From assembly GCA_019828565.1 (NCBI GenBank), contig JAHDYR010000012.1, positions 1,669,780 to 1,733,779 of the forward strand: a stretch of DNA of 64,000 bases. Direction: 5' to 3'. This document shows, piece after piece, positions 8,898 to 60,190 of the stretch (positions are counted from its first letter, which is position 1; every line of letters starts with the position of its first letter). The notes beneath the pieces were generated by a model. The model was given only the letters and a program-made list of their open reading frames with translations, was not told the DNA's origin and searched no databases. The position numbers and the translations under genes were made by a program. This DNA is from Carpediemonas membranifera BICM. Taxonomy: Eukaryota; Protista; Fornicata.

Positions 8898-8909
8898 AGT
8901 AATATTACT
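8898..8909. promoter_or_regulatory. Palindrome at PBS position of B: AGTAATATTACT
   Basis: Perfect 12-bp palindrome overlapping the last A of the 5' LTR; ATG 4 nt later. Confidence 0.85.
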
Positions 8910-8913
8910 TCAA

Positions 8914-11900
8914 ATGACTGAAAACGGCCCGTCAGTGAACGAGCCAAGCATTAGTGCCATTCTGGCATTTCACGAAAAGCTAACGAGACATGTTCAGGCC
9001 GGTGGAAAGCGCCGCCTCATTAAGCGCTTAGGCCCTGCAGTTCTAACATTCTGCAGTTCATCGGGTGTTGATGTTAAGCAGGTGTACCGCCGCGCGAGGA
9101 GACAGAAGACATCATCCTCCCTTATTTTTCGCGCACCGCAAGTCCGTATGAAAAAGTCCGGAGCGGAAGACCTAGCTTTCCAGGCCGTCGTTGACGCCAT
9201 CAAACCTCAATCAGCTATCCTACAGCGCCAACTATTCCAGCTCTCTGTGAAGGGCGTCCATTCGGGGCGCTTCACACAGTACTTGGACAAGTTCCGTACA
9301 AGGTACCGCATCATCAAGCCTGATCTGGCGCCTGCTACGATCCGCCAGATGTTCCTGAACGGAATCCTGGACGAGTTCCTCCGCGAGGAGGTCAAAGACG
9401 CCGTAGTAGGAATGTCGCTCGATGAGACCTTCATTACCTCTCTTATGATCTGCAAGAAGCTCGAGGAAGCTCGTCTCATCTCTGAATCATACGCATCCCT
9501 CCATCCAGTGTCGTTAACACATCCTGGAAGCCGCGTCAAGTCTAGCAGAGCCCGTCCGGGCCGCCAAGAACGTCAACAGGCAAGACCTGACCAGCCTCCC
9601 CTCCAACGCCAAGCTCCTGAGCCACCGCACGCGTACAACCACTCCAGTTTCCAGCCTGATACGAGACGGCCCGACAGAGCCAGTAAGCAGTGTCAGAACT
9701 GCGGCAAGCAAGGTCACTTCGCCCGGGACTGTAAGAGAGATAAGATCAAGTGCGCAAAGTGTGGAAAGCTGGGCCACATGGCCAAGTTCTGCCGGTCGAC
9801 AGGCCCAGTTCCTGTAAACGACCGTAAGTACACCAATTACTCGACACCGGCGCGCGTTTGGACTATGGCTGGCGAGACAACTCCATCATTGCCTGTGGTA
9901 TCGGGTGCAGTGGACGGCTGCGCATGGGGACGCATACTATTCGATTGTGGTGCGGACATCCCGCTCGTTAACCCCGCCTCAGCTCAGGAAGCGGGACTGA
10001 ACGCGACGAAGCTAGCCAGCCCGATACACATCAAGTCACCCGGAGGCAGAATCCAGACAGACACGACCTATGAGGTCCCAGTAATCATGGACAAGTCGCC
10101 GATGACCCCGAAGGGCGTCGAGGCGACGGTGACCGCGTATGCAGTTGAGATGGAGTATGACATGCTCTTGAACTATGCAGTCATGGTGGACTGGGGCATT
10201 CTTCCACATGTTGGAGCTAGGTCGAGCGACTCGTCGATCGAAGAGGACGCCCAGCTCCCATCGACACTCGAGCGTCTTGAGAGACGACTCTACAATTTGC
10301 GAGCGGATATGAACGATAAGCAGAGTCGGATATTGGCCCGCTATGACCACTGTTTCCACGACCGGCAAGGTTTCAGCAATCTAGAACCATATGACCTTGT
10401 GCTCAAGTCGGACAGGGTGATCGCGTCACGGTCTAACTACGTCCCATACCAGCGCGAGCACTTATTCGACCAACATCTCGCCGAGCTAATCGAGAAGAAG
10501 TACGTCGAGCAGTCTTTCAGCCCATATGCTTCGCCGGTGCTCCTGGTTCCGAAGGGTCCGGACAAGACACGCATGGTCGTGGATTTCCGTAAGATCAACG
10601 ACGAGACGGAGCCGTTCGAGTACCCTATCTCTGAGATACAGACGTGTTTAGCGAAGTTAGGCGCATCCAAGGTGTTCGCCACCCTAGATTTATCGGCAGG
10701 GTACCACCAGATTCAGATGTCCGAACGTTCGCGCCAGTACACGGCGTTCAATACGCCGAGGGGCAAGTTCCAGTATACGGGCATGCCGTTTGGTTTGAAG
10801 AACGCGGGTGCTCACTTTCAGTACTCGATGGAGCGGGCGTTCGCAGATTTACTAGGAGCCAGCTGCCTGATTTATATCGATGACATCGTAGTCTTCGGAA
10901 GAACAGAGGCAGAGTATATCGTCAACCTGACGAAGGTCCTCAAGCGAGCGGATGAACTGAATCTTCGCCTCAATGCCGAGAAGTCACATTTCGGCCAGTC
11001 TACAGTCGAGTTCCTTGGCTGGACAGTTTCAGGTGAGGGCTACGGTATTGCTGCCGACCGGGTACATGACATCCAAGAGCTCAAGCTACCCAAGTCCCGA
11101 AAGGCGGCCCAGGCACTCATGGGATTTCTGAACTTCGTCCGTGACTTCGTGCCACACTTTTCCATGGTCACGCGACCATTGGCACTCGCAGCAGCCGGTA
11201 AGATTGGGCTAGGCACCCCAGAGCAGACCAAAGCCTTGGCCCTGGTGAAGGATCTACTGTGTTCCGCACCCATCTTACAACACTTCGACGTGACAAAGCG
11301 CCACGTGGTGATGACCGACGCGTCGGACGTAGGGATCGGAGGTGTCCTCCTGCAGGATGGCAAGCCTGTCAGTTATATGTCGAAGGCCTTCACCGATGTG
11401 CAGACAAGATGGAGCACGATAGAACAGGAGGCATATGCTATCGTCTCCGCGCTTCAACGCTGGCGCCGTTTCCTGGTCTGGACCCCTTTCACGCTGCTGA
11501 CCGACCACCGTAATCTCATTTATATGGCCCGTTCATCAAACGCTAAGGTCCAAAGGTGGTATGAATCGATCGCAGACCTCCCCTTCACAATACGACACGT
11601 CCCTGGAGTAGATAATGGAGCAGCGGATGGATTGAGCAGAGTCTTTGCTGCGTCCAAGACCCCGACCGCGACAGAGAATGAGATCCATGACGCTCACCTC
11701 CACGGTCAAGCCCATCTCCCCATTTATACGACAGTCGAGCTGTTGAAGGCGAGAGGGAAGCGAGCCCCCATTGACCAAGTCGCAGAGGTAATTAACAAGT
11801 GCCCAGTCTGTCAGCTCACGGCGAAGCCAGAGGACGCCAAGCGGTCGTACTTGCACACAGCGAGTGTAACTCCGTTTGATAAGGTAGCGATTGACACGAT

Positions 11901-12903
11901 TGGCCCGCTACCAGAGGTCAACGGTTTCAGCTATATCTTGGTAATGGTTGACACGGCCTCAAGGTGGACAGAGCTGGTACCCCTACGGACTACGAAGGCC
12001 CTTGAAGCAGTAAGAGCATTTACGAATACGTGGCTACTACGGTACGGGGCGCCTAGAGTTCTCCAGTCAGACGGAGGGCGCCAGTTTGCAAACCGTTTGT
12101 TCGAGGATCTTGCTGGTCGAGTCGGGTTCTCGACCCATATCACAACTCCGTATCACCCGCAGTCCAATGGGATTGTAGAGCGGGCGAACTCTCGAATCGA
12201 ACGAATCTTGCGCTCCAGGAAGTATGAGCTCCAGACCGAGGATTGGGTCGACTGTTTACCAGTGGCACAATTTATTGTTAACTCAACACCCAGAGCGGCC
12301 CATCACCTCACGCCGGCTGAGATTATCTTTGGAAGCGACATGCGAGTGCCGAGTGAGATTGTCTTCACGAGCCAAGATGACAGCGCGGACTATCCGGCAG
12401 ATAATGGCGAGGCGGTGAAACTCGCGAGACAGATGGCCGCGGCACGCATCCGAGCCATGCAAGAGGACGCGCGCAACCGGGTTGGGTCCCCGCCGGTTAT
12501 TGATTCAGAGTGGGTGCTGGTGAAGTATCCGACTAAGCCACCTTCCAAGCTTGCGGCAGGTTGGCGAGGCCCAATGCAGCTAGTGAGCCCGGTTATCGTC
12601 GACAACTTACCGGTAGCATACAATGTGAGAGACGTGAACTCGGGTAAGGAGTTCAGGGTAGCATCCGAGCGCGTGAGGTCTTTCGAGGGTGACTTGTCAC
12701 GCGACTCAGCACAGGCCCTGGCAGCGACCACTGATGCCGAGTACGTTGTCGAGTGCATTTACGATTCATCCAATGAGAAGTCGATCAAGAATAGGAAGTT
12801 CCACGTGCACTGGAAAGGGTATGAGCCATGCGAGGACACTTGGGAGCCTTACGAGAACGTCAAGGACTGCGAAGCGTTAGATATATTTCTCGGAAAAGCA
12901 TAA
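8914..12903 (+). CDS. B Gag-Pol single ORF (2x CCHC, PR, RT, RNase H, IN, chromodomain), intact
   Basis: CQNCGKQGHFARDC, FDCGA, LDLSAGYHQ, YIDD, TDAS, GPL..DGG..ER, WRGP, HWKGYEPCEDTWEPY. Confidence 0.95.
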   Translation: MTENGPSVNEPSISAILAFHEKLTRHVQAGGKRRLIKRLGPAVLTFCSSSGVDVKQVYRRARRQKTSSSLIFRAPQVRMKKSGAEDLAFQAVVDAIKPQSAILQRQLFQLSVKGVHSGRFTQYLDKFRTRYRIIKPDLAPATIRQMFLNGILDEFLREEVKDAVVGMSLDETFITSLMICKKLEEARLISESYASLHPVSLTHPGSRVKSSRARPGRQERQQARPDQPPLQRQAPEPPHAYNHSSFQPDTRRPDRASKQCQNCGKQGHFARDCKRDKIKCAKCGKLGHMAKFCRSTGPVPVNDRKYTNYSTPARVWTMAGETTPSLPVVSGAVDGCAWGRILFDCGADIPLVNPASAQEAGLNATKLASPIHIKSPGGRIQTDTTYEVPVIMDKSPMTPKGVEATVTAYAVEMEYDMLLNYAVMVDWGILPHVGARSSDSSIEEDAQLPSTLERLERRLYNLRADMNDKQSRILARYDHCFHDRQGFSNLEPYDLVLKSDRVIASRSNYVPYQREHLFDQHLAELIEKKYVEQSFSPYASPVLLVPKGPDKTRMVVDFRKINDETEPFEYPISEIQTCLAKLGASKVFATLDLSAGYHQIQMSERSRQYTAFNTPRGKFQYTGMPFGLKNAGAHFQYSMERAFADLLGASCLIYIDDIVVFGRTEAEYIVNLTKVLKRADELNLRLNAEKSHFGQSTVEFLGWTVSGEGYGIAADRVHDIQELKLPKSRKAAQALMGFLNFVRDFVPHFSMVTRPLALAAAGKIGLGTPEQTKALALVKDLLCSAPILQHFDVTKRHVVMTDASDVGIGGVLLQDGKPVSYMSKAFTDVQTRWSTIEQEAYAIVSALQRWRRFLVWTPFTLLTDHRNLIYMARSSNAKVQRWYESIADLPFTIRHVPGVDNGAADGLSRVFAASKTPTATENEIHDAHLHGQAHLPIYTTVELLKARGKRAPIDQVAEVINKCPVCQLTAKPEDAKRSYLHTASVTPFDKVAIDTIGPLPEVNGFSYILVMVDTASRWTELVPLRTTKALEAVRAFTNTWLLRYGAPRVLQSDGGRQFANRLFEDLAGRVGFSTHITTPYHPQSNGIVERANSRIERILRSRKYELQTEDWVDCLPVAQFIVNSTPRAAHHLTPAEIIFGSDMRVPSEIVFTSQDDSADYPADNGEAVKLARQMAAARIRAMQEDARNRVGSPPVIDSEWVLVKYPTKPPSKLAAGWRGPMQLVSPVIVDNLPVAYNVRDVNSGKEFRVASERVRSFEGDLSRDSAQALAATTDAEYVVECIYDSSNEKSIKNRKFHVHWKGYEPCEDTWEPYENVKDCEALDIFLGKA

Positions 12904-15900: not shown

Positions 15901-18900
15901 TAGATGATCGAAGAGATCCGTGATGGCGCTCTTGAACTCTTCCTCCGTGTGCGAGTAAGTGAAGATATCGTCGACGTAGGCTTTGGAGCTCTTGCAGTCT
16001 TCCAACACCTCGTCCATCGCTCTCTGGAACTTGGCCGGGGCATTCTTGAGCCCGAAGGGGGTACGAAGAAACTCGTAATGACCGCCTGGGATAGTGAAGG
16101 CGGTGAGTGAGACGCTGTCGGGGTCCATACGTTGCTGCCAGTAGCCGCTTCGGAGGTCGAGCGTGCCGAAGAGTGAGCAGCCGCTTGCCTCATGGACGAA
16201 GGAGCAGATATCTGGTGTCGGGTAGCGATCGTCTTCGGTGGCTTCATTCAGAACGTTATACGCGACGCAGAACCTGTCCTCACCGTTCTTCTTCTTCGCC
16301 ATCACGTGTGGGGATGAGTACGGCGAGTCACTTGGGCGGATGACTAATTGTTGGAGCATCTTGTCGATTTCAGCGGCGGCGCTGGACGCTTGGGAACCCT
16401 TAAGGGGGCGTGGTCTTGCCTTCGGGAGCCTGTGGTCGCCAGGCTTCAGGGTGATCTTGTGTGGACGCAACTCGCTGCCGTCCTCTGGCAGCTCGCCGAA
16501 GAGCTCGCGGCGTTCGTATAAGAAGCCTTCGAGCCACTTAGTGAGGTCTGGATTGTCATCGTAAGGGATTCGGACCTTCTTCCACTCGTTATCAACATCA
16601 ATCTCATCTGTGCAGGAGTCGAGATACGGGTGTGGAGGCAGATTGTCGTTGTCGGAGATGGTGGCGGATGACGGGATCAGCAGTCTGTCGTTCATGAGGT
16701 AGCCCAACCTTCTGAGGAGGTCGCGGCCGATCAGGACCTTTCGGCGTTTGGCGCGGATCACCATCAGCAATGCGGTGGCCTGCACGGTCTTGCCATCGAT
16801 AGACGGGAGAGTGATGTCGACCTTTGCGGCCTTACCGATGGAGATGACCTCGTCGCCGGCGCCGAAGAGCTCGACTGAGGTGTCGATGAGCTGGTAATTC
16901 GGGACCTTCGCTAGTGCGGGCTCCGAGATGACTGAGACGCAGGCTCCGATATCGAACTTCGTCTTGATTTGGACACCGTTGATCGTGGCCGGGACGTTGA
17001 TGGGGTCGTTGTCGATCTCAACAGCCCCCACCTCATAGACGTCACCTTCGTCCTCGGACTCGGCGTCATCTGAGGCGTTGTTGTCGACTTCATGGACGTC
17101 GCGCTGGCCGCGCGAGTTGCGAAGCTTTGAGGAGTCCCTCAGGAACATGTTGCCGGCCCGACGGTCGGACTGCGTACCGCTGGTCTGCTTCTGGTCGTTC
17201 TTCCGCGGCTGAGAGGAGCCGGAGGTGCCCTTGGACTGGTTGTCCTTCTGCCGTGCGAGGAACCTGCATGACTCTGTCGTATGGTTACTGTTCCACCCAT
17301 GAGACTTGCACCACTTGTTGAAGTGCTGTGGGATGGCATACTTGTGCTTGTCTTTGAACTGGAGATAGGGATCGCTTGTATGGGGCAGTACTGTCGGCTT
17401 TTGCTTGCCAGGGGCGCGACGGCCGCTGTCTTTCTGGTCGGCGGGTTGGGATGTTACCGCGAACGCCCGCCACGGGACAATAACGCGTTCGTCGTGATCG
17501 ACGTCGAGGTTCTCGAGGCGAGAAAGAAGATCGTCGATTGACTCGGCTGGGTCCTCGATGATGTCCTCGTAAAGAGCCTCGGCGTCCTTGCTATAGCCCT
17601 TGAGGAAGATCGACCCCAGTAAGCGCTCGGTCGAGTTGTAGGTTAGTGCCTCGATGTCTGGGACGCATGGATCGTAAGCGTTGAGGATCCTACGTAGCTT
17701 GAAGACGGCGAGTCGGTGCTCGACGGCTGGGCCGAAGAATCTAAGGCCGGATGCCTTGTCGCGCACCATCTTCAGTCTCGATCCCATGTCGAGGGTCGGT
17801 AGGAGCGTATAAACGATGTAGGGGATGATCGCCTTTGCCTCGGCGCGGAGGTAAGCGTAAACGTCGGGGAAATCAGCACGCTTTGGCCAGGCGGCCAGGT
17901 CGGGCTTCTCATCTATGGTGGGCTCCGGGACCTTGTCAGAGAAATCTGGGAGTGTCATGTCGGTCCCGTCAGGCACGGGGACAGTCGGGGTTGCGGCGCT
18001 GAAGAGGTCGGACCATCTGTTGGCCGCGGGGTCCTTCATGTACGAGGTGATGAATGTCCGGGCCTTCTCAGTGGCCTCCGGGATTGCGCGTTGTATCTCT
18101 GCCGAGATTGACTCCTTTGTCAGGCTGGTGAGGGCCGGGTCCTTGAAGTTTGAAGAGACCCGCACACACTCTGCGTACTGCGCTCGCTTGCAGGCCGCCT
18201 CAAAGGCAGCAGCGAAACGCTTGGCGATTGCATCTGCGGTGGGATTGTGGGATATAGCTTGCGGAGCCTCGTCCGAACGGGCCTGAGCTCGGGCTTCGGC
18301 GTCAGACATAATGGAGGTCTGGAGGCTCTCAAGAGTGGGAAATTTCGCTGTCGGACGCCAATCACGCTTTAACTTCGCGACCGTGTCCGCTGTGAGCGTT
18401 TGGATGAAAGAAGTTGGGTTTCTCTCGTGGATAATTGCAGTGGTGTAATCCGCGAGCGCCTGGATTGCGCTTTCTGGATCATTAGTCGTGAATTGCTTCA
18501 TTTCACCGGTAATATCGATATTGTGCCGTGTTACGAATGAGTTTTATGCAACAAACTCCCGCAGTTTAGGGTCACACCTGGCCGGTCCTCAGACGGGACA
18601 GCATGCCCTGGAGGGGCAGCTCGAAGCAGTTCGAGACGCGACCAGAGACCGAAGCGATTACGGTCTGGAAACGGGCTTCCCGCTCCGCCAGGTCCGCCCG
18701 ATGAGGTCCTTGGAGGTGCCCGCGGAGCACCTGGCGGGTGATGGGGCGGTTGGAGGTCCGGCGCTGGGCGGCCTCAACCGTGCTGACAGCATGACCAGCT
18801 TGGGCAGAACAAGTGGCGACAGCCACGACGCGTCCGGTCAAGGTGCGACGCGTACCTTCATCGTCGACGACAACACCCGTTACGCGGCGGATATCCTCAG

Positions 18901-19156
18901 GTGGGTGCCGGCGGGTGATCGCGCGAGCCGCAGGAACCTCGATGACGACGTCCTGTGGCGATGACGGCTCAACAATGGGTGCTGAGGAAGATTCCTCGGG
19001 ACGAGCACGTCTCTGGGGCATATCGGTGCTGTCCGGCACGAGCACGGACTGGTGTTTGCGCTTCAGAGCGCGGAGACGTTCAGCAACGGGCAGATTGCCG
19101 TCATTGCCAGCAAGATCAGCGATCAGTGCGTCCAAATCATGCACAAGGTTCTCCAT
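12955..19156 (-). CDS. B antisense accessory ORF, 444 aa after removing element C (19156-18577 + 13709-12955); C-terminal chromodomain-like region
   Basis: The two listed ORFs join in frame across TSD CCTG (..RTGQ-VFSAGDEAGDLMTRQ..). C-terminal DYVIVECLRH..LVVKYQNY. Confidence 0.75.
13789..18501 (-). CDS. C Gag-Pol single ORF, 1570 aa, intact
   Basis: CHHC-type knuckle CKSHGWNSNHTTESC, protease FDIGA, RT YVDD, RNase H TDAS, integrase, chromodomain IRWEGLTPDEDS. Confidence 0.95.
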   Translation of the reverse strand: MKQFTTNDPESAIQALADYTTAIIHERNPTSFIQTLTADTVAKLKRDWRPTAKFPTLESLQTSIMSDAEARAQARSDEAPQAISHNPTADAIAKRFAAAFEAACKRAQYAECVRVSSNFKDPALTSLTKESISAEIQRAIPEATEKARTFITSYMKDPAANRWSDLFSAATPTVPVPDGTDMTLPDFSDKVPEPTIDEKPDLAAWPKRADFPDVYAYLRAEAKAIIPYIVYTLLPTLDMGSRLKMVRDKASGLRFFGPAVEHRLAVFKLRRILNAYDPCVPDIEALTYNSTERLLGSIFLKGYSKDAEALYEDIIEDPAESIDDLLSRLENLDVDHDERVIVPWRAFAVTSQPADQKDSGRRAPGKQKPTVLPHTSDPYLQFKDKHKYAIPQHFNKWCKSHGWNSNHTTESCRFLARQKDNQSKGTSGSSQPRKNDQKQTSGTQSDRRAGNMFLRDSSKLRNSRGQRDVHEVDNNASDDAESEDEGDVYEVGAVEIDNDPINVPATINGVQIKTKFDIGACVSVISEPALAKVPNYQLIDTSVELFGAGDEVISIGKAAKVDITLPSIDGKTVQATALLMVIRAKRRKVLIGRDLLRRLGYLMNDRLLIPSSATISDNDNLPPHPYLDSCTDEIDVDNEWKKVRIPYDDNPDLTKWLEGFLYERRELFGELPEDGSELRPHKITLKPGDHRLPKARPRPLKGSQASSAAAEIDKMLQQLVIRPSDSPYSSPHVMAKKKNGEDRFCVAYNVLNEATEDDRYPTPDICSFVHEASGCSLFGTLDLRSGYWQQRMDPDSVSLTAFTIPGGHYEFLRTPFGLKNAPAKFQRAMDEVLEDCKSSKAYVDDIFTYSHTEEEFKSAITDLFDHLLAANVRLKADKCALGLSEVEVCGFIVNEMGRSVAPARVQAIRDLFPPTTTSELRRSLGKFNYLSNYIPHLADAAAPLNRLLKGSPGKSSPVAWGAEQDAAFAKMKDLVTEHTALALPDLDKPWTLETDASSVAIGGVLWQGEGVEKVPLAFYSKTLDETQQRWSTVEQELYAIIHCVTRPEFSALLKIKPFSLRTDHRNLIWLLRKTDEEGTKKLTRWRLTMTEYPYSIAHIKGVHNVVADSLSRPSSVPEDRDDLKAAIEQVSSSHRHLINQAHAGAQGHVSVAQTMANLRNAGQSWPDMKSDVRETLRSCAVCQKVRPPAREKTKWHSTQRLKPFETVQLDTIGPLPEEAGMSYIITIVDVFSKFTILRPVATTKAEEAAAAMLDVWSTFGVPKEIQTDQGTQFRNALIAECNAIISLQHRFSTPYHPASNGVVERLNGTIMSRMRALLLDAEDGDWPAYLPLAQHVINSTRHATTGRSPFELLFGKESTLRVAPIALANATKSCTPGSVDEGEIVRFQEDVAALQALARVKIRAYEARKAKATADTHAWEREQYVLLRYPGKPPAKIYTPLRGPFRMEGKGEHPNTYRVRDLVTRCVSTVHADRLVRFETDLSDTELERIAAFEQGEQPVKEIVGHKKKKNGSLELLIRWEGLTPDEDSYVPYNRYYDQLAALDDYLVAHPEHEAAFAAAKKKFRSSGRR
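18511..18522. promoter_or_regulatory. Palindrome at PBS position of C: AATATCGATATT
   Basis: Perfect 12-bp palindrome overlapping the 5' LTR end. Confidence 0.85.
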
Positions 19157-22100
19157 TAGGCCGTATGGAAGTATTAACCGCGGTCAAAACTTCATTTACG
19201 TGTTACATGATACAAAAACGTAGGACCTGGGTCATGACCAGGACTCCACACAGCTAAGTCAGGACGCTGAATAGCATGGTGCAACGCGTAATTTACGAAA
19301 GCAGACGGGTTAGGCAGAATTCGCCGACCGAGAAAGGGTCCGTTTGGTGAACCCCGATGAACGCTTGTTGAGGACGATAAGTCCGCAAAATCACGATATT
19401 TATACGTCTATGAGACGAATACTGATGTTGTTAGTGTTATAGAGCAATATTCGCGGCGTCCCAACTGTCGACGAACGAGAAAAGCAAAAAAAGGCCATAT
19501 CTCGGCAACGAAGAGGCTTTGAGGCCTCTAGAGGCGTTATTCGAACGCTATGTAAGAATGAGGGCTTTCAAGGCCGCATACCATGGTGGTTTCGAACTGA
19601 AGCCATTTGTGCATTTTAAGGATCCGAATGAACTAATCGACGACCATACGGCCCAGTAATGGCCCGTGGGAGGGCGGTAAGCCCGGGTAAGACTAACCCT
19701 TGAGCGTATGACGCAATACTTACACAGTGGTACCACGAAATTCTGAGTCAATCAATTTGGAGATACGTCACCACAGAACAACTACGGTTGTACCGGACAC
19801 CCTTACGTGGCAGTAAGAGTATGTCAACGGTGTTCCGGCTGCTGTGCTACCCACAGTTAGCGACGGTGAAGCAAGGGTTACCGAGCTAAGGCAGAGTACC
19901 CTTCCCGGGCACTGGGCTATTCCCCAGCCGCCAACGGTGAAGTAGGTTAGCACAGGCTTTCCCCTGTGAGGCCTACCGGCACAAGTTATTCATACTCAAG
20001 TCAGTTGAGCATGGAGGGGCAGTGTCAGTCAGTACAATTTAAGAACATTTATGGATTGACTTCGACACCCCTGTGTCGAAGTCTTTTCCCCCAGTAAAAC
20101 AGGTATAGTCAAACCACAGGGTGACAAGAGGCTATGCGTAGACTACCGACAGCTGAACAGGCTGACGGTGGACTATGACTACTGTTACCTTACAGTACCC
20201 GCTGCCCACCATATCCTCATTGATAGAGATGCTGGAGGGCAACTCCAAGTTCAGTACGCTGGACCTGAAGGCCGCGTTCAACCAGGTCGAGCTGGATGAG
20301 GATTCGAAGGGCCTCACAGCGTTCGCGACTCAGGAAGGCCAGTTTGAGTACAACAGGATGCCGTTTGGGCTCAAGTGTGCGGCGGCCCATATGCAGATGG
20401 CCATCGAGTCAGTACTGGGCGACCTCATCGGGCGCGCGTGCCTCGTATACATCGACGATATAGTCGTGTTCGGGGCCGACCAGGAGCAGCATGACGCCAA
20501 CCTGGACGAGGTGGTTGACCGGCTCTTGAAGCACAAGGTGGGGCTGGGCGAGGCGAAGTGCGTATTTGACAAGGAGGAGATCGAGTATGTGGGATGGATT
20601 GTCAGTGGAGAGCACAAGCGGATCGACCCGAAGCGAGTCGAGCACATCCAGAACATGCCCATGCCGGACTCCATTCCCGCGGTCAGGGGGTTCCTGGGCA
20701 CGGTTAACTTCGTGCACGACTGTATACCCCACTTGGCGTGGCGTGAGAGATGCCTACATCGCTTAGAGAAGAAGGACGCAGTGTTTGAGCGAGGCTGGAC
20801 ACCGGAGTGCGTCGAAGCCGTCAACACCATCAAGGCGGAGATCGCCAAGGCCGAGGCACTATGCATCCCCGGCGCAGAAGAACCACTCGAGCTGTATACC
20901 GACGCGTGCGAACACGGAGTGGGCGCAGTCCTCATGGCCAAGCGGGGCGACAAGCTCCTTCCGGTCGGGTATTTCTCCAAAGCCATCCAGGAAGACACGT
21001 CGAGGGCGAGGTGGAATATGACCCAGAAGGAGACGTTCGCCATCAAGGAAGGGGTCAAGCACTTCATTTCCTGAAGGGACGGAAGTTCACCGTCGTTACC
21101 GATCACCGCAACCTGTTGTGGATGGACCAGTCCGAGAACACGGTAGTGCAGCGGTGGGCCCTAGAGTTGCGGCAGCAGTACAACTTTGAGATCAGACATG
21201 TCGCCGGGGTGGACAACTCAGCGGCAGACTGGCTGTCCCGCCACCCGAGGAAGACAGCAGGGGAAGCGACCGAGAGCGTCTACGTAGCCAGCCCGGGTGA
21301 CGGCGAGACCCCGCATACATTGCCTGAGAGCCAAAAAGAGGCGCGGTTCAAGGAGGTACACGGAGCCGGCAAGGGCCACCATGGTGTGCAGCGGACACTA
21401 TGGAAGCTAGAGGACCGCGGGCTATTGTGGGAAGAGGCCGAGACCGATGTGTCAAGGATGGTCAAACAGTGCCCCATATGTCAGAAGTCCGGGCTAGGGG
21501 CCGACCCGTACCAGCTGGTACCCAGAGAGCCGCTCGGGCCATATGGCCGAGTGTTCGTGGACACCATTGTCATGAACGAGGCCGACGGTGAGTACAGGAA
21601 CATCGTCGTCGTTACCTTACCTTACAGTCGTGGAGGAGACGTCACGCTGGGTCACCCCCATACCATTGAAGTCAACGTCCTCGCGCGAGACCATCGAGGC
21701 GCTAGTCCGGCACTACCTGACCCACTTCCCGGTGCCGGCCGAGTGGGTGGCTGACAATGGGTCACAGTTCGCCTCCACCGAATTCCACGCATGGGCACAG
21801 GAGACTGGTGCGAAGGTAGACCACACCACGCCATATTACCACGAGGAGAATGGCGTGGTCGAGCGGTGGAACAAGGAGGTCAATCGTCACCTGAGGTGTG
21901 AGATGTACGAGCGGCAGACCCACAGGTGGGCCAGCCTGCTACCTGCCATCCAGAATATAATCAACTCCGCCCGATCGAAGGCGACCGGGTCGTCTGCATG
22001 GAGGTTGATAGTGGCAGACGGGACCAAGGCGTCCGTTGACAAGCTCAAAGCACAGAGGATGGAGGAGACCGAGGCTGTCATGGGTCTCACCCAAGATTAC

Positions 22101-22177
22101 ACAGATTTATATTGTCGAAGCCAGAATAAATGACGCATTCATTCTCGACTTCATGCGTCATAATTGTATTGATTCTC

Positions 22178-23133
22178 ATGGCCTATGGGATTGAGACGCG
22201 AATACGTTTTGGTCTTATGATGGACCAAGGGGCCTCCGAGAAAGATATAATGAAGCAACTCGGCATAATAAGCCGGTCAACAGTCACACGTTGGAAACGG
22301 TTGTACTATACGCACCAAGGAACGATCAAGAAGCGGAAGCGGGAACACAAATCGACGATGAAGCACGACAAGTTGATAATGCGAGCTGTTGCTAGGTGCG
22401 AGGATGAAGACAGACAGTTCACTGCTGCTGATCTTCGAGGCATGCTAGCAGGCTGGGTAGAAGACCCTCCCTCCGTATCTCACCTCCGCCGCTGGCTCAA
22501 GAAGCACCGCTACAACTACAAGCTGGGCCTCAAGATGTGGTATGAGAGCGACCCCACACGTATCGGTGAGTTCTGGGCCGAGTACGCCACGGTAATCCGC
22601 CCTCAGCACGCGTTCAAAGATCTTGTCTTCTTAGACGAGACCTCCTTCGACCCCCATCAGGCACGAACCAAGGGGTGGATGGCCGTGGGCGACTCGGTGA
22701 GCAGGGCCAGCGGGAAAGTTGTGGGCAATCGCGTTTCAGTATGCGCCCTCCTCGGCGTAAATGGGATCATAGACCGGGCTATCACCGAGGGAACGTACAA
22801 CGCGGACGACTTCTTTACTGTTCTACGTCGCTTCTTAGAGCGTATCCGCGGTCAGCACAAGGTCATGGTGCTCGATAACGCACGGAGTCATAAGACGGGA
22901 CGCGCTGAGCTGTATGAGCCACTGAGCAAGGAGTACGGAGTAACCTTCTTCTTTCTACCTGGCTATGCTCCTTTTTGAACCCCATTGAGACAGTGTTTGC
23001 CTGTGTGAAGAGAGAAGTGATCAAAAACCGTGGCAGGAACGAAGATGCCCTGCCATACATCACCGAAGCCTTCGATAGCGTGTCAGAACTTGTCAACTTG
23101 CCCGCATTGTTCCGTAAAGTGGGGTATTGGTAA
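22178..23133 (+). CDS. IS630/Tc1-type transposase (DD37E spacing), one frameshift in a T-run at ~22975
   Basis: N-terminal HTH (ISRSTVTRW), VFLDET, VLDNARSH, and LPGYAPF/LNPIE once the frame is restored. I count 37 residues between the second D and E. Confidence 0.85.
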
Positions 23134-23225
23134 ACGTGCAGTTTATGTCATCACCTCCAAGGCGCCATACACGGACCATGGGCAACACTGAGGATAATAA
23201 ACGATCAAGAGGTGCAACCAAAGGT

Positions 23226-23696
23226 TTATTCTTCCACGTCGTCTTCCTCTGTACCGTCCAACCCAGACGCATCCAGCGCCTGAGATGCTGAGACAGTACT
23301 GACGCGACCAGCTGCCAGGCGCCTGTTGTGTAGCCACGTATAGAGATCAGCTACTGCTTCAGTAGGCACAGGAACATGCACGAAGCTTGCGTCGACTGGA
23401 AGAGCCGGTGGTGATGATACAGAGATGAAGGACCCGGATGACTGGGATGATGAACGGCTGTATTCGCGATGCGAAAGGCCCATTGGAATCTCAGTCATAT
23501 CTGCCTTGTCGAGGATAACTTGAACCGCCCATGAAGCGATTCTCTCAACCGGAAGGCGCTTCGCTGTCCCATTCGCCGTCAGTATGTCTCGCATTGTCCC
23601 AAAAATGCTACACCCACCATCTAGCTTGTTTTTAAGGGTAACAAGCGGGCAGGTTCCGGCGTGATGGCCTGTTGCGCGGCATATAGTACAAGGCAT
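23226..23696 (-). CDS. Second, convergent transposon ORF with N-terminal CCHC zinc knuckle
   Basis: MPCTICRATGHHAGTC fits C-x2-C-x4-H-x4-C. It lies wholly inside the TIRs and is followed on its own strand by TAAACTGCA. Confidence 0.65.
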   Translation of the reverse strand: MPCTICRATGHHAGTCPLVTLKNKLDGGCSIFGTMRDILTANGTAKRLPVERIASWAVQVILDKADMTEIPMGLSHREYSRSSSQSSGSFISVSSPPALPVDASFVHVPVPTEAVADLYTWLHNRRLAAGRVSTVSASQALDASGLDGTEEDDVEE

Positions 23697-23851
23697 TCCA
23701 ACTTTCCTTTGAATGAATCAAAAATCCTTTTGGAATGCGTCATTTAGTTTGGTTCTCACAATATATGATATTAGTTAGTCAAGGAGTTTCTCCTCGACAC
23801 CATTGTGTCGAGTCTTCTCCTCTTGTAAACATAGTTCGTCAAACGAACCAC

Positions 23852-23863
23852 AATACTAGTATT
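23852..23863. promoter_or_regulatory. Palindrome at PBS position of D: AATACTAGTATT
   Basis: Perfect 12-bp palindrome overlapping the 5' LTR end. Confidence 0.85.
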
Positions 23864-41300: not shown

Positions 41301-42337
41301 GAGGTCTGGAGAGGTTGGGGCCCTGAGGGCGCTGGCTGTTGGCAGGATGCGTAGGGCCTCGGCCCACACGCTTGACGTGGCCGGCTGGAGCCGGGACGTG
41401 GGCCTTCGGGCCCCTGGGGGGACCCTGGCGGTCAAGGAACTTAGCCGCCTTGACCGCCGACTTGACTGTATCGTCGAAGGAGTCATCGCCCCATAGGAGC
41501 GAGATCCATCTCGTCTTAGTCTTCAGGGCCTTAGGCCGCTGGAGGAGCGTCGATGAGCAGTCTGCTACAGAGCTGCTCAAAGCGGTGACGTCTGGAGGAT
41601 ACCTCCTCGTCCGTGGCGGCCTCGGGGAGGTCCTCGCCCGGAGGAAGGGAGTCGAAGAGACGCATCCGGTTTCGGAAGCTGGCGACCAGCACACGGGTTG
41701 CTCGCTCGATAGAACCCATGGCGGTGCCGTTGGGGACATTACGGGTACTGTCCCAGTCAAGAGAGAGAGATGCTAGGTTATCTAGCAGGTCGATGACGTT
41801 GTCAGGAGTTACGAGCTTGCGCATCAGAGTGGAGAGTTGATCAAGGGTAGCTCTCGTGAAATCGACGTCGGGGTATTGTGCTTGAAGTTCTGTGATGTCT
41901 TCGAGTGACAAGAAGTCCGTGGGAGCAACCTTGCTGTTCGTTGCAAGGAAAATCCTGCCCATACGCTCAAAGGCGTCGATACTCTCGATGGTTGCATCTT
42001 TCAGCTTGATAGTGGGGTAATTACCTGTAACGGTGTTGATTGAAGTACTCATGAACTAGTTCTAGAACTGAAGAGAGAATTCGTTTACTTGGGGAAATCC
42101 GCATAGTTGGACCAAAGGTCAATCGTGGTCAAACCCACGTCATGACGATCGCAGATTTTGGATGTCGGAGCCCAATGTTGCACAACGGCGCTGCAGAGAA
42201 CGCATTCGAGGATCATCAGATTCCTCAGAAGCTACTAGCTGCAGCAACCGCGCCAATTCCCCCAAATGTTCCGTCACCATTTGCACCAAGATTGGTGCAA
42301 AATGAAACATCCCAATCCCGAATGGAAAGCCGCTCAA
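32319..42337 (-). CDS. D antisense accessory ORF, 382 aa after removing F and G (42337-42143 + 37713-37143 + 32701-32319); C-terminal chromodomain-like region
   Basis: Both junctions restore the frame exactly (NLRSS-RVAP; LALA-VFPG). C-terminal TYRLERVVGSR..LLTLKWEDY. Confidence 0.75.
32706..37142 (-). mobile_element. Element F: chromodomain Gypsy element, 84-bp LTRs; gag-pol 37043 to ~32782 with frameshifts
   Basis: Identical LTRs at 32706-32789 and 37059-37142. TSD CGGC. CRLCGGEHWDSDC, VDTGA, YIDD, IKWEGY. Related to E. Confidence 0.93.
37048..37057. promoter_or_regulatory. Palindrome at PBS position of F: AGTGATCACT
   Basis: Perfect 10-bp palindrome 1 nt from the 5' LTR end. Confidence 0.85.
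37718..42142 (-). mobile_element. Element G: chromodomain Gypsy element, 74-bp LTRs; gag-pol 42052-37846 with several frameshifts or stops
   Basis: Identical LTRs at 37718-37791 and 42069-42142. TSD TGAC. CKFCQGWHKDYRC, VDTGA, YLDD, VKWLGYDELTDEP. Confidence 0.93.
42058..42069. promoter_or_regulatory. Palindrome at PBS position of G: AGTTCTAGAACT
   Basis: Perfect 12-bp palindrome overlapping the 5' LTR end. Confidence 0.85.
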
Positions 42338-42508
42338 ACATGGAGTTATGATCTCTTTATTGTTGTCTTGATGTTGTTTAGTCGTTTAGTAGCTCTGTAG
42401 TGGGTCTTACCCAATACTTACATAGTTTATGACTTATAGATTACACCATATTTGCAACCATTGGGTTTTCTCTTTATTAAAGTTCTTTCCCTCCTCCAGT
42501 AGGAGCAC

Positions 42509-42520
42509 ATTAGATCTAAT
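42509..42520. promoter_or_regulatory. Palindrome at PBS position of H: ATTAGATCTAAT
   Basis: Perfect 12-bp palindrome overlapping the 5' LTR end. Confidence 0.85.
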
Positions 42521-55369: not shown

Positions 55370-55379
55370 AGTAATTACT
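55370..55379. promoter_or_regulatory. Palindrome at PBS position of I: AGTAATTACT
   Basis: Perfect 10-bp palindrome overlapping the 5' LTR end. Confidence 0.85.
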
Positions 55380-55500
55380 GTGATCAGGTACTAAGAACTA
55401 GTCTGGCTTTATAGGGTTAACCTCGTAGGTGAAAGTGGTCTAAACTACAGGGCTTTGAATTCATCATTAGAATGTGCACTTTATGTCGTCTACAAACATG

Positions 55501-58500
55501 TGTCGCCACAATGGACTTATGTGAACAGGGTGCAGTTTATCTCACACTACATTCCCCTCCAGAGGAACTAGTCCAGTCTGTTGGCACGTCTGTGACCGGA
55601 CTGAGGCTTGGCCTCGAAAGCCTTGATCGCACGGTCAAGGTCAGGGTGAGATGAACGATAGTGGGTGAGAGCGGAGAGCGTCTTGATCTCAGTGTAACGC
55701 CGCTCGCTGTCTTCATCTGATTCATGCCCAAGCCAGTGAACAGTCAGAACTGGCTCGAGAGTGTCGGCTTCAAGACGCCAACCAACGATAGAGTCTACGA
55801 CACCCCCAGACAGTGTCGGACATGAACGCAACCTTGGCCTCTCCAACAGAGGGCTTACGAGGAGCTTTAGCGAGTCTGTTCGCATGACGCTTGATGATGA
55901 CCTTGGTCACAGGATTCTATCAGGCTGTAGGTATCAGGACCGTCAGCGGCTCCTGTCACCAGATAAGGTCCGCGCAAGTGGAACTCAAGACGAGGTACAG
56001 GCTGGTCACGCTTAACCAGGACCCAATCGCCGATATTGAGCTGCTTCGAACCGAATCGAGGGAAATGCTCATCCTTCCACCTCCTCCGGTGAAGCTGAGC
56101 TGCCTGTAGCTTTGGCAATAACGCTCTTAGCAGCGCGCTCCCTGCGTCTCGGCAGTGATATGCGATCTGTCAGGGAGTGATAGGTTCGCCGTTCTCAACA
56201 GCGTGATGGACAAGTGCAGCCGAAAGAGCAACCTCTCTAGGCGTAGCGCCTCCCAGTGACACACTGGGGTAAAGCATTGATGTTAATCTCCGCTTGGGAC
56301 ATAGAATTGCGCCATTGGTGGCGCGGACAATCAGATAACGTTCCAATAGCGACCCTAAGGTGCTTGTTGGCCTCCCGGTTAAATCTCTCAACGAGGCCAT
56401 TTGCCTCGTGCCTTTCAGGCGTAGTTACGCGATGGTAAATGCCGAAGGTAGCGCAGAAGGTCTTAAAGTCATGGTTGCAAAAACTGAGTACCACTGTCAG
56501 TTACAATCTGGTCGGGGCACGCCCAACGCGCGATAATGATCGACCGGATTGCCATAATAGTCTCGCGAGCCTCGGTGCTCTTAAGAGGGATAAGGTGGGT
56601 GAGGTGGGAACCTCCGTCAACGCATGTCATGATATACCGGTAGCCCGAGTCCTCAGGAGTTATAGGTCCGATAGTATCCACGTGGAGCGTGGCCAACGGC
56701 CTGTCAGCTGGCAGCTGGCGCTCGATGTACATGACATTTGGTTGAGCACGGTGTGAGCGCTGACATGTCACACACCGTTCTACATAAGACTCCACGTCCT
56801 TTCGAGCCCCAGTCCAACTGAGTCCGGCAACCTCCAAGAGGTGTAGGGTGGTGTCTACTCCGGCATGATGCCTGCTGTGCACAGACTGGAAGCGAGATTG
56901 CTTGATGTCGTCAGTCAGAACAGCGTTCTCCCCAATATACATGATGGGAAGCCTTGACAGGCTGTCAGCCGTGTTGTCGCGCCCAGGGATATGCACGACT
57001 TCATAGATGGGGAAGCGGGCCATCTCTAAGGCCCAACGAGTGACCTTGGGCGTCGAGGATGCAACCATCGACACAAGGCATGAGTTGTCAGTGTGGAGTG
57101 ATATGGGCGTACCAATAAGCATAGGACGGAAGCGCTCCAGAGCAGCGAACACAGCCCACTGCTCTTTCTCGACAGTCTTCCAGACACACTGCTGTTTGTC
57201 AAAGCGGCGTGAAAAGAATGCCAAAGGGTGGCCATCCTGCACCAGGACGGCACCAACGCCCACGTTGCTCGCGTCAGTATAGAGATCGAGTGGCTTGTTG
57301 GGATTGAAATGATAGAGTGTGACCGCCTCACTTGCAGCCTCTCTCAAACACTCAAGGGAGTGGCGTCTCTGCTCAACTGAAATCGTCTCCCCGGCCTTAA
57401 ACCTCTCGAGAGGGTCTGCCTTTCCGATGTAGTCCGGTATAAATCTTCTGATAAAGCTAAAAACCCCCGAGCACATGTTGTGCTTCGGACTTGTTCAGAG
57501 GGACACGGATATTAGTCAATGAGTCGAGTCTGGATGGGTGGATCGAGACCCCCGTTCCAGACACAACAGAACCCAGATAATCAATTTGGGTTAAGCCAAT
57601 GTGAGACTTGGGCCCCGACAGCCGGATTCGATGATCACAGCAGACGTCAAACAGCTCCTCAACCACAGAAAGGGAGGTCTGCAGCCGAGCCTGCGTAGCA
57701 GAGTACGTCATCAACAAAGATCAGGCACTTAAGCTTGTACTTGCGACGCAGACCATCAAGTCTGGACTGAAAGATCATAGGCCCATTCATGAGGCCAAAG
57801 GGCAGACGACGGAAGACATATCTCTCGCCACGATGTTCAAAGCCTGTCGCCATAGAGGCCTGCTCGGTCAGATTGAGCTGATGGAAACCCGAGCGGAGGT
57901 CGAAGCAGGCAAACACCTCGGAGCCTCGACATGCCTCGTAAAAGCTCTTCCACAGTTGGCATAGGATGTTCCTCGACCTCAGTAGCCGCGTTAACATGGC
58001 GGTAGTCGAGAATGGGTCTGAACGGTGGGTTCGCGGAGGGCTTACCAACCATAAACACGGGGAGAGCCATTTCAGGTCAGCAGCTGTGCTCTCGATGGTC
58101 CCGTTATCAAGCATAGACTCAATAAAGGTATCCATGGCCTCGAGGTGGGCCTTGTTCCGGATAGGTCTCATGATCTGGGAGGGGACGATGCCATCCTTCC
58201 AGATAATGTCAAACTCTGCCAAATCAGCTCCCGATGGGTGCAACGGACCAAAGAGCTCACTATGCTTCTCGCACAGTGCATGGAACTTAGGTGCAAGATC
58301 ACCGAGGTTCGAATCATGGATAGTAGGAAGAGTGTAGCCGCCGACATATAGGTTAGCTAACTCAACAAAGTCGTTGACCGGATCTGTCGAAGGAGTCTTA
58401 TCCTCCTCCGGCTCTGGCTTATTAACGCCAAAGGACAGTCCTACTGCACGCATGGCAGTCTTACCCAGGATGAGTGCCGTGGGTAAGTCAGGGATAATAA

Positions 58501-60190
58501 CAGCATCAAGCTGTCGGCCACGCACCGGGAAACAACCGGGCATGGAGACAATAGGGCTCAGCGTCGTAGTACCAACATAGCAGCCACACTGGCCATTCCA
58601 GCTGTTGACGTGGCCCTCGGCCGGTGTAACGGTTAGACCCAGGCGTTCAGCCGCCTCAGGCCTCATCATAACGGCAAACTGCTTGGCACAAGAGTCGGCC
58701 TCTGCAACAACCACAGGACCGCCGTGACGTGTGCTAACCTCGACGAGGAAGTCATCGTAGGTTTCAGGCAGCTCAGTCATCATGGGTTCAACATAGATAC
58801 CCGAGTGCTCAGCCTTCGGGATAAAACCATTGTAAGAGTTCTTGTTGCGTGTCGAGCGCCCTTCAGTCTTGACTCGGTCAGCGATGGACTCCAGAGTCAC
58901 ATTGTGCGCCTTCATAGCAGCTAAAGCAGTCTTACAAGGCTGCTTGTCGAGATCCTGAGCTCTCCGGACATGGTTCATGAGCTTGGGGATGGTAAGGACC
59001 TTAGTAATGTCGGCTTGCTGCTTTGCATTCGCAGCCTGTAGGACGTGGCAGTCACTGCTACCGTGGTCGTCGACGAGGTGGAAGCAACAGAATTTCCCAC
59101 CGGAGTTCTTCGGGCCTGCGGTCATCGCCCTCGGAGCGATGTCTCCCTTAACAGTACGGGAGAAGGGCTTGGACTGAGTGGAGATGGGGGTCACAGCCTC
59201 CATGACTCCATCAACTCTACGTAGAAAGTCGCGAAGCTCAGTGGACTTCTTGAGGGCCTCGCTAATCAAGGTGTCAACAGTCACAGTATGATCGAGTATG
59301 CGCCGAGAGTACCCCGTGCCAAAGAGGTAGTTGAGGGTGACGTCATTCGGGGCACGCACTCCTTCGATGAGGAGCCTCTTAATCTCACTTCTTAGACCAT
59401 GGTCATCGGAGCACTGAAGCGAATCCAGGGTCTGGCGGAAGGCCAATAGGAATGTGATGGTGGACTCGAGCGATTCGAGCCTTGTTCCGTGATTGACCTG
59501 CGACACAGCCGCCAAGATAGCTAGAGCATCAGAATCCGTCATCTTAAGTTCCTGACGCAAATAGTCAAGGTAATTGTCGGCCTGCTTACCGAGGGCTTCG
59601 GTCTTGGATAGGGCCGTCTCCTTAGGGAGAGCGAGCGAGTGCTCTATGGTCTCCTCCATCGTCGTCAAATAGTTAGCTCTTGCCTTCGAGAGCTTGTCTT
59701 CACGCTTAGCCTTAGCATCAGGCGTCTCCTCATCGGGAACAATCTGAAGAGTAGTAATATACTCCTTAAGCATGGTTACTGTTCGAGAGAGCTTCGTGAA
59801 ACGGTCAGATGAACCGTTATACATCTTCGATGAGAGGTATGGCTCTATCTCTTGGGCCAAATACGACACGAGTTCAGTAGCAGAGGTGAACTTTCGTGTT
59901 GATGAAGAGTCGGAATTGGGCAGAACCTTCAGCTCCGCCGTGGGGTCATGAATGGTGGCTAAGAAAGCCAATGCGGATGCGTTCGATAGAACCTTCCCAA
60001 GTGTCAGCACGTTCTTGTTATCACTGAGATTGTGATTTTTCAGTAGGAGGATCCAGTGATTCCATGCAGCATAATCCCGTTTGTTAGGGGGATCCTTCAA
60101 AGCTGATATGTCCATGTTCTTAATAGCAGTAGAAGCTTCTGTCGCCACAATGGACTTATGTGAACAGGGTGCAGTTTATCTCACACTACA
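55501..60190 (-). mobile_element. Element K: chromodomain Gypsy element with 51-bp LTRs; gag-pol from ATG 60115 to ~55568, multiple frameshifts
   Basis: Identical LTRs at 55501-55551 and 60140-60190. TSD CATG. PPT GGAGGGGAA. CCFHLVDDHGSSDC, RT FVDD, VHWLGHESDEDS. Confidence 0.93.
60131..60140. promoter_or_regulatory. Palindrome at PBS position of K: AGAAGCTTCT
   Basis: Perfect 10-bp palindrome overlapping the 5' LTR end. Confidence 0.85.

What the first reader, a model, noticed from the sequence alone, without database searches (positions are those of the whole stretch)
8898..60140. Nine of nine LTR retrotransposons replace the tRNA primer-binding site with a family-specific perfect palindrome: candidate new priming system
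Seen: directly after every visible 5' LTR there is no TGG-starting PBS but a perfect, loopless palindrome. These are B AGTAATATTACT (8898), C AATATCGATATT (18511), D AATACTAGTATT (23852), E AAGTAATTACTT (29733), F AGTGATCACT (37048), G AGTTCTAGAACT (42058), H ATTAGATCTAAT (42509), I AGTAATTACT (55370) and K AGAAGCTTCT (60131). Seven overlap the LTR's terminal A and two sit 1 nt away. The sequences differ but the symmetry is kept across several divergent clades, and none follows a 3' LTR. Established: Ty3/Gypsy elements normally prime minus-strand DNA from a host tRNA, while Tf1-type elements self-prime from a complementary transcript 5' end. Neither fits here by eye. Inference: a self-complementary PBS would let one element RNA (cleaved or terminated at the palindrome end) anneal to a second copy and prime it. 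It would also provide the homology for second-strand transfer and act as a family-specific dimerisation code, analogous to the retroviral DIS.
Basis: partly seen in the sequence, partly recalled or inferred. Interest (0 to 1): 0.95.

Follow-up and report, generated by a model that had tools for sequence, protein, structure and literature searches.

The report
Palindrome-primed protist Gypsy retrotransposons
A broad lineage of jumping genes in single-celled eukaryotes carries a perfect self-pairing 10-18-letter sequence exactly where such elements normally bind a host tRNA, and it likely lets two copies of the element's RNA pair up so that one primes DNA copying of the other.

Summary
Confirmed and extended. 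The window is a nest of Ty3/Gypsy elements in a Carpediemonas membranifera-like genome. All 9 elements with a visible 5' LTR carry a perfect 10-12 nt palindrome there (7 start on the LTR's last A); 0 of 9 3' LTRs do. Relatives agree: 28 of 28 elements on one RT branch (support 93-98/99, unrooted) with a visible junction have it, in 26 different sequences. 0 of 27 outside elements with an LTR pair have it, and nearly all show a TGG site. Tf1-type priming fails: no matching LTR stretch, and an adapter-marked RNA 5' end of element B (8873) does not match. A hairpin mostly does not form; a dimer does. Best reading (about 0.5, untested): two element RNAs anneal at the palindrome, one is cut and primes the other. 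A 10-nt palindrome at this position is already published for fungal GalEa Copia elements, without a mechanism; my searches found no Gypsy case. 'Family-specific code' holds only partly. The scan noted this before on other DNA (microsporidia, protists, Copia).

The parts
8803..8898 (+). Element B 5' LTR (96 bp; 3' copy 20023-20118; TSD GGGT)
8873..8873 (+). RNA 5' end of element B, likely the transcription start; 26 nt before the LTR end
   Evidence: contigs of runs X3 and X4 (one sample) start here behind a loose end equal to a published 5'-phosphate RNA adaptor
8898..8909 (+). B palindrome AGTAATATTACT, starts on the LTR terminal A
8878..12903 (+). B gag-pol open frame (zf-CCHC, RT, RNase H, integrase, chromodomain); first ATG 8914
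20023..20118 (+). B 3' LTR, preceded by a polypurine tract; no palindrome after it
18522..18576 (-). Element C 5' LTR (55 bp; 3' copy 13714-13768; TSD CAGG); C is nested in B; single ORF 13789-18543
18511..18522 (-). C palindrome AATATCGATATT, starts on the terminal A
22076..23852 (+). Element D 5' LTR, split by a Tc1/mariner transposon (about 22113-23760); 3' copy 48776-48900; TSD AGGC
23852..23863 (+). D palindrome AATACTAGTATT, starts on the terminal A
29746..29815 (-). Element E 5' LTR (70 bp; 3' copy 25456-25525; TSD CCGG)
29733..29744 (-). E palindrome AAGTAATTACTT, one T away from the LTR
37059..37142 (-). Element F 5' LTR (84 bp; 3' copy 32706-32789; TSD GCCG)
37048..37057 (-). F palindrome AGTGATCACT, one T away from the LTR
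42069..42142 (-). Element G 5' LTR (74 bp; 3' copy 37718-37791; TSD GTCA)
42058..42069 (-). G palindrome AGTTCTAGAACT, starts on the terminal A
42396..42509 (+). Element H 5' LTR (114 bp; 3' copy 48180-48293; TSD GCTC)
42509..42520 (+). H palindrome ATTAGATCTAAT, starts on the terminal A
55379..55466 (-). Element I 5' LTR (88 bp; 3' copy 49674-49761, one mismatch; no TSD match; RT largely deleted, element J inserted)
55370..55379 (-). I palindrome AGTAATTACT, starts on the terminal A
60140..60190 (-). Element K 5' LTR (51 bp; 3' copy 55501-55551; TSD CATG)
60131..60140 (-). K palindrome AGAAGCTTCT, starts on the terminal A

Best explanation
These Ty3/Gypsy elements carry a perfect palindrome in place of a tRNA primer-binding site, and they likely prime reverse transcription in trans: two genomic RNAs would anneal through the palindrome, one would be cut at the 3' end of the duplex (probably by the element's RNase H, as in Tf1), and its new 3'-OH would prime copying of the partner's U5-R. 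SHOWN: the palindrome, its register on the LTR's last A, its confinement to one RT lineage, mirrored double changes, no TGG site, no Tf1-type complement, and an RNA 5' end of B at 8873. PREDICTED: the dimer duplex (-4 to -19 kcal/mol). INFERRED: (1) pairing inside the particle; (2) the cut after palindrome position 11 or 12, giving a 36-37 nt primer in B and a strong-stop DNA of 25-26 nt; (3) trimming of the primer's own R-U5 once the new DNA folds back on it; (4) plus-strand synthesis copying the primer, so second-strand transfer works only if the site equals its own reverse complement. Step 4 would enforce strict Watson-Crick symmetry including the centre and would let a mutation be repaired into a mirrored double change.
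For: 28 of 28 in-lineage elements with a visible junction have a perfect palindrome of 10 nt or more; 26 start on the terminal A, the register where a primer must end. 20 of 28 are 12-mers, i.e. the A plus 11 nt, and Tf1's primer is 11 nt and is cut by RNase H (PMC7175516 passage). 26 distinct sequences and 157 pairs, all Watson-Crick, with the central four bases always self-complementary. Every difference in 8 compared pairs of differing relatives is a mirrored double change (this follows once both are palindromes). Hairpin energy is 0 in 23 of 28 and never below -1.8, against -4.4 to -19.3 for the dimer. The B leader folds at -2.3 alone and -16.0 as a dimer. Longest Watson-Crick complement upstream: 4-7 nt in the nine window LTRs and 4-8 nt in 350 nt upstream in 19 loci. 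B's RNA 5' end matches the palindrome at only 7 of 12 positions, 5 contiguous. Controls: 0 of 27 outside elements with an LTR pair have a palindrome, and the nearest outside element L085 has a TGG site.
Against: No primer, cleavage product or cDNA was observed; both RNA contigs of B run uncut through the palindrome. Many duplexes are weak and AU-rich (83% A+T; 6 of 28 weaker than -7 kcal/mol). E and F sit one base off register. Palindromes are known to dimerise Ty3 RNA while tRNA still primes (PMC11381356 passages), so symmetry alone does not prove priming. Host tRNAs and small RNAs could not be searched: no genome is held and the window has no tRNA genes. For 14 of 19 loci the junction was picked by CA plus palindrome upstream of gag rather than by an LTR pair (control 18 of 18 vs 2 of 22).
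Confidence: 0.5

Rival explanations
1. The palindrome is only a dimerisation or packaging signal (DIS-like), and the primer is something else not yet identified (a host small RNA or a protein).
For: Ty3 5' RNA dimerises through a short palindrome (PMC11381356 passages). Self-pairing is mostly stronger than cross-pairing among the nine window sites.
Against: Ty3's signal is a 6-mer in gag, present in addition to a tRNA site, and the retroviral DIS is in a loop in addition to the PBS. Here the palindrome is locked to the LTR's last A in 26 of 28 and no other primer site follows it. An RNA-only duplex should tolerate some G-U pairs (recalled expectation); none is seen among 157 pairs.
Confidence: 0.2
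2. Snap-back priming in cis: the RNA is cut just after the palindrome, and the 5' piece folds on itself as a 4-5 bp hairpin and primes copying of its own U5-R. Full symmetry is then demanded only at second-strand transfer.
For: Same register and same need for a self-complementary site. It needs no partner at the priming step. 5 of 28 sites fold weakly (-0.4 to -1.8 kcal/mol).
Against: 23 of 28 sites form no hairpin at all. A cut RNA loses its site, so a second RNA is needed later anyway (inference).
Confidence: 0.14
3. The palindrome acts as DNA: a symmetric binding site for a dimeric protein (promoter, integrase or silencing factor), unrelated to priming.
For: Strict Watson-Crick symmetry fits a DNA duplex. 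The outer letters are biased (A-T in 18 of 18 and T-A at position 3 in 15 of 18 distinct 12-mers).
Against: Inner positions take all four pair types. The site lies downstream of B's RNA start and outside the LTR, so it is absent from the integrase ends and from 3' LTRs. It leaves priming unexplained.
Confidence: 0.06
4. The site is complementary to an internal piece of a host tRNA (half-tRNA priming as in some Copia) or another host RNA, and the symmetry is incidental.
For: Half-tRNA priming exists (PMC10886601 and PMC6317226 passages). Host tRNAs could not be checked.
Against: It would need 26 different host segments that are themselves perfect palindromes. Half-tRNA use was found only in Copia in the plant survey.
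Confidence: 0.04
5. Ordinary Tf1-type self-priming from the transcript's 5' end, missed by eye.
For: B's RNA begins with five bases complementary to the last five of its palindrome. The elements carry chromodomains like Tf1/sushi.
Against: Only 4-7 nt of Watson-Crick complement (5-9 with G-U) anywhere in the nine LTRs, against 11 for Tf1. The A/T-GTAAA motif at B's start does not follow the palindrome in D, G, L002, L019 or L022.
Confidence: 0.04

Closest known systems
Conserved Hairpin Site (CHSeq1) of fungal GalEa Ty1/Copia elements (Donnart et al. 2017, PMC5445492; read: passages, section 10, Additional file 4)
   Same: No tRNA site; a palindrome directly after the 5' LTR that includes the LTR's final A. 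The 10-mers resemble those of F and I. The authors also ruled out Tf1 complementarity and mention the DIS.
   Different: Copia, not Gypsy. Essentially two sequence variants (85% of families), which differ by G>A and C>T changes and may be RIP products (my inference from the low GC of most CTAATTAGT families); here 26 sequences of 10-18 nt. GalEa usually has a downstream inverse copy (CHSeq2) forming a hairpin; here the best such match is 6-8 of 10-12. TSD 5 bp there, 4 bp here. No mechanism was established there.
Tf1/sushi self-priming (Tf1, Tf2, Tj1, Tosmo, Tcn1; PMC7175516, PMC4600332, PMC6317226 and bioRxiv 10.1101/2022.12.06.519325, passages only)
   Same: Chromodomain Gypsy elements without a tRNA site. 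An 11-nt site next to the LTR. The proposed mechanism borrows RNase H cleavage of an RNA duplex.
   Different: Tf1's primer is the first 11 nt of the same mRNA in a three-duplex 'pretzel', and its site is not palindromic. Here the LTR and the observed RNA start do not complement the site; the only complement is the site itself.
Palindromic dimer initiation in Ty3 (PAL6), Ty1 and retroviruses (PMC11381356, passages)
   Same: Two genomic RNAs pair through a 5' palindrome.
   Different: Those signals are short (6 nt in Ty3), lie away from the LTR end and coexist with a tRNA site.
Dictyostelid Skipper chromoviruses (PMC5006619, passages)
   Same: Protist chromodomain Gypsy elements with no TGG site and no LTR complement; unexplained priming.
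   Different: The site is a polypyrimidine stretch, not a palindrome. Skipper was not in my trees.

Membership tests
Ty3/Gypsy LTR retrotransposons (Metaviridae) | Domain order gag-PR-RT-RNase H-integrase | tested here: met
   Pfam; best solved match Ty3 RT, E 1.7e-66
Ty3/Gypsy LTR retrotransposons (Metaviridae) | TG...CA LTRs, polypurine tract, target duplication | tested here: met
   4-bp TSD in 8 of 9
Canonical tRNA-primed LTR elements | TGG-starting site complementary to a tRNA 3' end | tested here: not met
   0 of 28 have TGG in the first 6 nt; 26 of 27 controls scored TGG, and the 27th shows TGG overlapping the scored base
Half-tRNA-primed elements | Site complementary to a tRNA anticodon arm | not testable with these tools
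   no host genome, no tRNA gene in the window
Tf1/sushi self-priming group | 5' end of the transcript (in the LTR) complementary to the site over about 11 nt | tested here: not met
   4-7 nt in the nine LTRs, 4-8 nt in 19 loci; B's RNA 5' end matches 5 contiguous nt
Tf1/sushi self-priming group | RT phylogeny groups with Tf1/sushi | not tested
   no named Tf1, sushi or Tcn1 sequence was among the tool-supplied proteins used
Chromoviruses | Chromodomain at the integrase C-terminus | tested here: inconclusive
   PF00385 in B, C, D, H, J and, below the curated cut-off, I; not found in E, F, G, L; placement against reference chromoviruses untested
Fungal GalEa CHS elements | Copia domain order (integrase before RT) | tested here: not met
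Fungal GalEa CHS elements | Palindrome including the LTR's final A | tested here: met
   26 of 28
Fungal GalEa CHS elements | Downstream inverse copy (CHSeq2) forming a hairpin | tested here: not met
   best match 6-8 of 10-12 in the LTR plus 150 nt, nine window elements
Retroviral/Ty3 dimer initiation site | Palindrome present in addition to a separate primer site | tested here: not met
   the palindrome occupies the primer position; no TGG site follows the LTR
Retroviral/Ty3 dimer initiation site | RNA dimerises through the palindrome | not testable with these tools
   only predicted energies

The most novel reading that the evidence does not exclude
A third general way to start LTR reverse transcription, beside tRNA priming and Tf1 cis self-priming: obligate priming in trans, in which one of the two packaged genomes is cut to prime the other through a palindrome that regenerates its own symmetry each cycle. 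It would define an unnamed, old Gypsy lineage spread over metamonads, jakobids and uncultured protists, and would have arisen separately in GalEa-type Copia elements.
Probability: 0.5. Interest if true: 0.88.

Novelty: new variant of a known kind. Interest (0 to 1): 0.72.

Why it matters
How reverse transcription starts is a defining trait of retroelements, and only tRNA priming and Tf1 cis self-priming are worked out. This gives a whole lineage with a sharply defined, covarying signal and near-intact elements with identical LTRs (B, which is transcribed, and C). It makes the unexplained GalEa palindrome directly testable. If true, dimerisation, priming and second-strand transfer would be one 12-nt signal, the element would be independent of host tRNA and tRNA-fragment control, and new families could be isolated from each other by a mirrored mutation. 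It also gives annotators a rule for elements now scored 'no PBS', together with a protein signature.

Tried and rejected
No whole genome is held and the loci's assemblies are not held, so no genome-wide count and no tRNA comparison were possible. ARAGORN found 0 tRNA genes and Rfam 0 families, so no known ribozyme. Tf1-type complement and CHSeq2-type hairpin: tested, not found. The viral collection gave one unrelated locus without LTRs. Sequencing runs: no holder on record as RNA, 4 runs with small shares; contigs only, covering the 5' junction of B but not of C-H, so no cut product could be looked for. One quick tree gave the lineage only 57 support; the finished careful search on the same 57 rows gave 93/99. 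The ESM Atlas gave generic RT clusters and no hit for an antisense ORF. Ten relatives had no source names. Literature searches for a palindromic site in Gypsy elements (Carpediemonas) listed no such report among the papers I opened; the Helenus paper has 0 occurrences of 'palindrom'. Levin 1995 and 1996 are not held. Subscription journals, Repbase and GyDB could not be searched. Rejected: assembly artefact (LTR pairs, TSDs, RNA contig identical across the junction, 19 independent loci); chance; a strictly family-specific code.
Full report
SETTING. The window (56% GC) begins with compact host genes. The nucleoside transporter at 5584-6981 is 98% identical to a protein named Carpediemonas membranifera, the only hit among 8000 candidates, so the host is that free-living metamonad or a very close relative. 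From about 7500 to the end lies a nest of Ty3/Gypsy elements with gag, protease, RT, RNase H, integrase and often a chromodomain; the best solved match of B's RT is Ty3 RT. No whole genome is held.

OBSERVATION. Nine elements have LTR pairs of 51-125 bp with TG...CA ends and a polypurine tract; eight have a 4-bp target duplication. Seven begin on the LTR's last A; E and F begin after one T. None of 8 nt or more follows a 3' LTR. Per-element chance is 0.2-0.9% and about 1e-21 jointly; 53 of 8385 CA sites in the window have such a palindrome, the nine included. At least three further elements (A, J, L) lack a visible 5' LTR and were not scored. RTs of the scored elements are far apart: B against C, E, F, G is 33-38% identical, and against D, H 57-58%.

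RELATIVES. An RT alignment fetched 80 metagenome loci (best 80 of 489), 1 viral locus and later 7 contigs from prokaryote bins. In RT-RNase H trees the window's elements, named Carpediemonas, Aduncisulcus, Dysnectes and Andalucia proteins and 21 of the 88 loci form one side of a branch: SH 98 (FastTree, 109 rows), 99 (46 rows), 98/99 (53 rows), 93/99 (57 rows; the interim quick tree gave 57). Rows were thinned for the later trees, mainly near-copies outside the group. The trees are unrooted and contain no reference chromovirus. I and K are not in the trees; they are tied in through A (integrase 58% over 97 residues) and L (63-66%). Of the 21 loci, 19 show the 5' junction and all 19 have a perfect palindrome starting on the A of a CA; L018 and L083 do not reach it. 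In five (L019, L021, L022, L033, L086) an LTR pair fixes the junction independently. In the other 14 it was picked as CA plus palindrome between the LTR start and gag; as a control this pattern occurs within 150 nt of the gag ATG in 18 of 18 inside loci (L084 had no ATG assigned) and 2 of 22 outside loci. The seven loci arrived after the pattern was set: 3 of 3 inside ones with a junction (L084, L086, L088) fit, and the outside neighbour L085 has a TGG site. Of 27 outside elements with an LTR pair, 0 have a palindrome and 26 score TGG; 26 of these 27 share one record prefix, so they are not independent. The lineage also has protein marks, such as W for Y in an RNase H motif (39 of 44 inside, 3 of 48 outside) and loss of a His conserved in 46 of 48 outside RTs; the W was part of the search patterns, so that count is biased.

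ANATOMY OF THE SITE. 28 elements give 26 distinct palindromes: 20 of 12 nt, 5 of 10, and one each of 14, 16 and 18 counted from the start. They are 83% A+T and hold 157 pairs, all Watson-Crick, with the central four bases always self-complementary; inner positions take all four pair types. Lengths end at the first mismatch, so edge wobbles are not counted. Close relatives differ by mirrored double changes, e.g. D against H at positions 2/11, 5/8, 6/7. As single strands 23 of 28 do not fold, while dimers give -4.4 to -19.3 kcal/mol. Self-pairing mostly beats cross-pairing among the nine window sites, but E and I share a core and cross-pair at -11.2, and two pairs of distant loci share the same 12-mer, so the 'family code' is loose.

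RNA EVIDENCE. Contigs of runs X3 and X4 (kind guessed as RNA; one sample) match B with no differences from 8873 onward and carry a loose 5' end. That end equals an RNA adaptor described as ligated to RNA 5' phosphates (PMC1838911 passage; same core in PMC4176332 and PMC3025573 passages). So B is transcribed and has an RNA 5' end 26 nt before the LTR end, likely the start site, though a processed end is possible. That end matches the palindrome at 7 of 12 positions, 5 contiguous, which does not fit Tf1's 11-nt primer (PMC7175516). The contigs run uncut through the palindrome; contigs cannot show rare cut products.

MECHANISM. A primer for minus-strand synthesis must end next to U5, and that is where the palindrome is locked. 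tRNA 3' ends are excluded (no TGG) and the LTR holds no complement. The only perfect complement in the element is the site itself, on a second RNA; particles package an RNA dimer (PMC7175516). I therefore infer annealing of two genomes, a cut at the duplex end by RNase H as in Tf1, and extension on the partner. In the standard cycle the plus strand copies the primer and must then pair with the minus-strand copy of the site. With a self-derived primer this works only if the site equals its reverse complement, which would explain the strict symmetry, centre included, and the paired changes. The same argument holds for a cis snap-back, which is disfavoured only by energetics. A pure dimer signal with an unknown primer stays possible. 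None of these steps was observed.

WHAT IS KNOWN. Donnart et al. 2017 (PMC5445492; passages, section 10 and Additional file 4 read) describe fungal GalEa Copia elements whose 9-nt site is palindromic with the LTR's final A, usually with a downstream inverse copy, and state that no model fits. That is the same geometry in another superfamily, with about two variants. Tf1/sushi self-priming (passages), Skipper's polypyrimidine site, bivalve TRIMs without a PBS and Ty3's dimer palindrome are the other neighbours; the membership tests are in the table. Searches gave no report of a palindromic site in Gypsy elements among the papers opened, but subscription journals and Repbase were out of reach. 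Earlier scan notes report the same pattern in microsporidia, other protists and Copia elements; I did not test those genomes, and I had found the GalEa paper before reading the notes.

VERDICT. Real, lineage-wide and under selection for symmetry; most likely a tRNA-free priming signal working through an RNA dimer. It is a new variant of self-priming with a partial published precedent, and the mechanism is untested. Interest 0.72.

Noticed in passing
window 8873-8898 and 25456-25525: R may be very short. An A/T-GTAAA-like motif lies 20-40 nt before the LTR end in all nine elements. B's RNA starts on it, and E-family contigs in X3 and X4 stop a few bases after it (LTR position 53 of 70). If it is the poly(A) signal, R would be only about 10-15 nt. 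This rests on contig ends only.
   Followed up: partly
window 12955-13722, 18572-19183, 37135-37767, 46503-47333, 47358-47930 (all - strand): Elements B, D and H carry extra antisense ORFs between pol and the 3' LTR, unlike each other. The four scanned have no Pfam hit. B's has a weak match in L002 (33% over 63 aa). H's 276-aa ORF ends in a chromodomain-like stretch by eye and has no Atlas hit.
   Followed up: partly
window 22113-23760: A Tc1/mariner DNA transposon (DDE_3, HTH) inserted at a TA inside D's 5' LTR.
   Followed up: partly
window 7500-64000: A deeply nested cluster (C in B in A; E, F, G, H in D in A; J in I) with mostly identical LTRs, so insertions are recent. It may be a heterochromatin or centromere-like island, which would fit the chromodomains (inference).
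   Followed up: partly
window 8846-8867, 23793-23812, F LTR: B, D and F share a U3 inverted repeat with a GACACC..TGTGTC core upstream of B's RNA start; possibly a promoter element.
   Followed up: no
window 4876: A 29-nt intron is skipped in contigs of X1-X3 in the methyltransferase gene; X1 and X2 differ from the window by a few percent in host genes, so they hold another strain or allele.
   Followed up: no
L024, L033, L038, L048: gag and pol are separated by a single in-frame stop codon (read-through arrangement), unlike the window's elements.
   Followed up: no
L082-L088: Eukaryotic Gypsy elements sit in bacterial and archaeal genome bins, likely binning contamination.
   Followed up: partly
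window 7555-7575, 49632-49652, 55467-55496, 60195-60250: Remnants of K/L-like LTRs flank elements A, I and K, suggesting insertions into older LTRs followed by deletions.
   Followed up: partly
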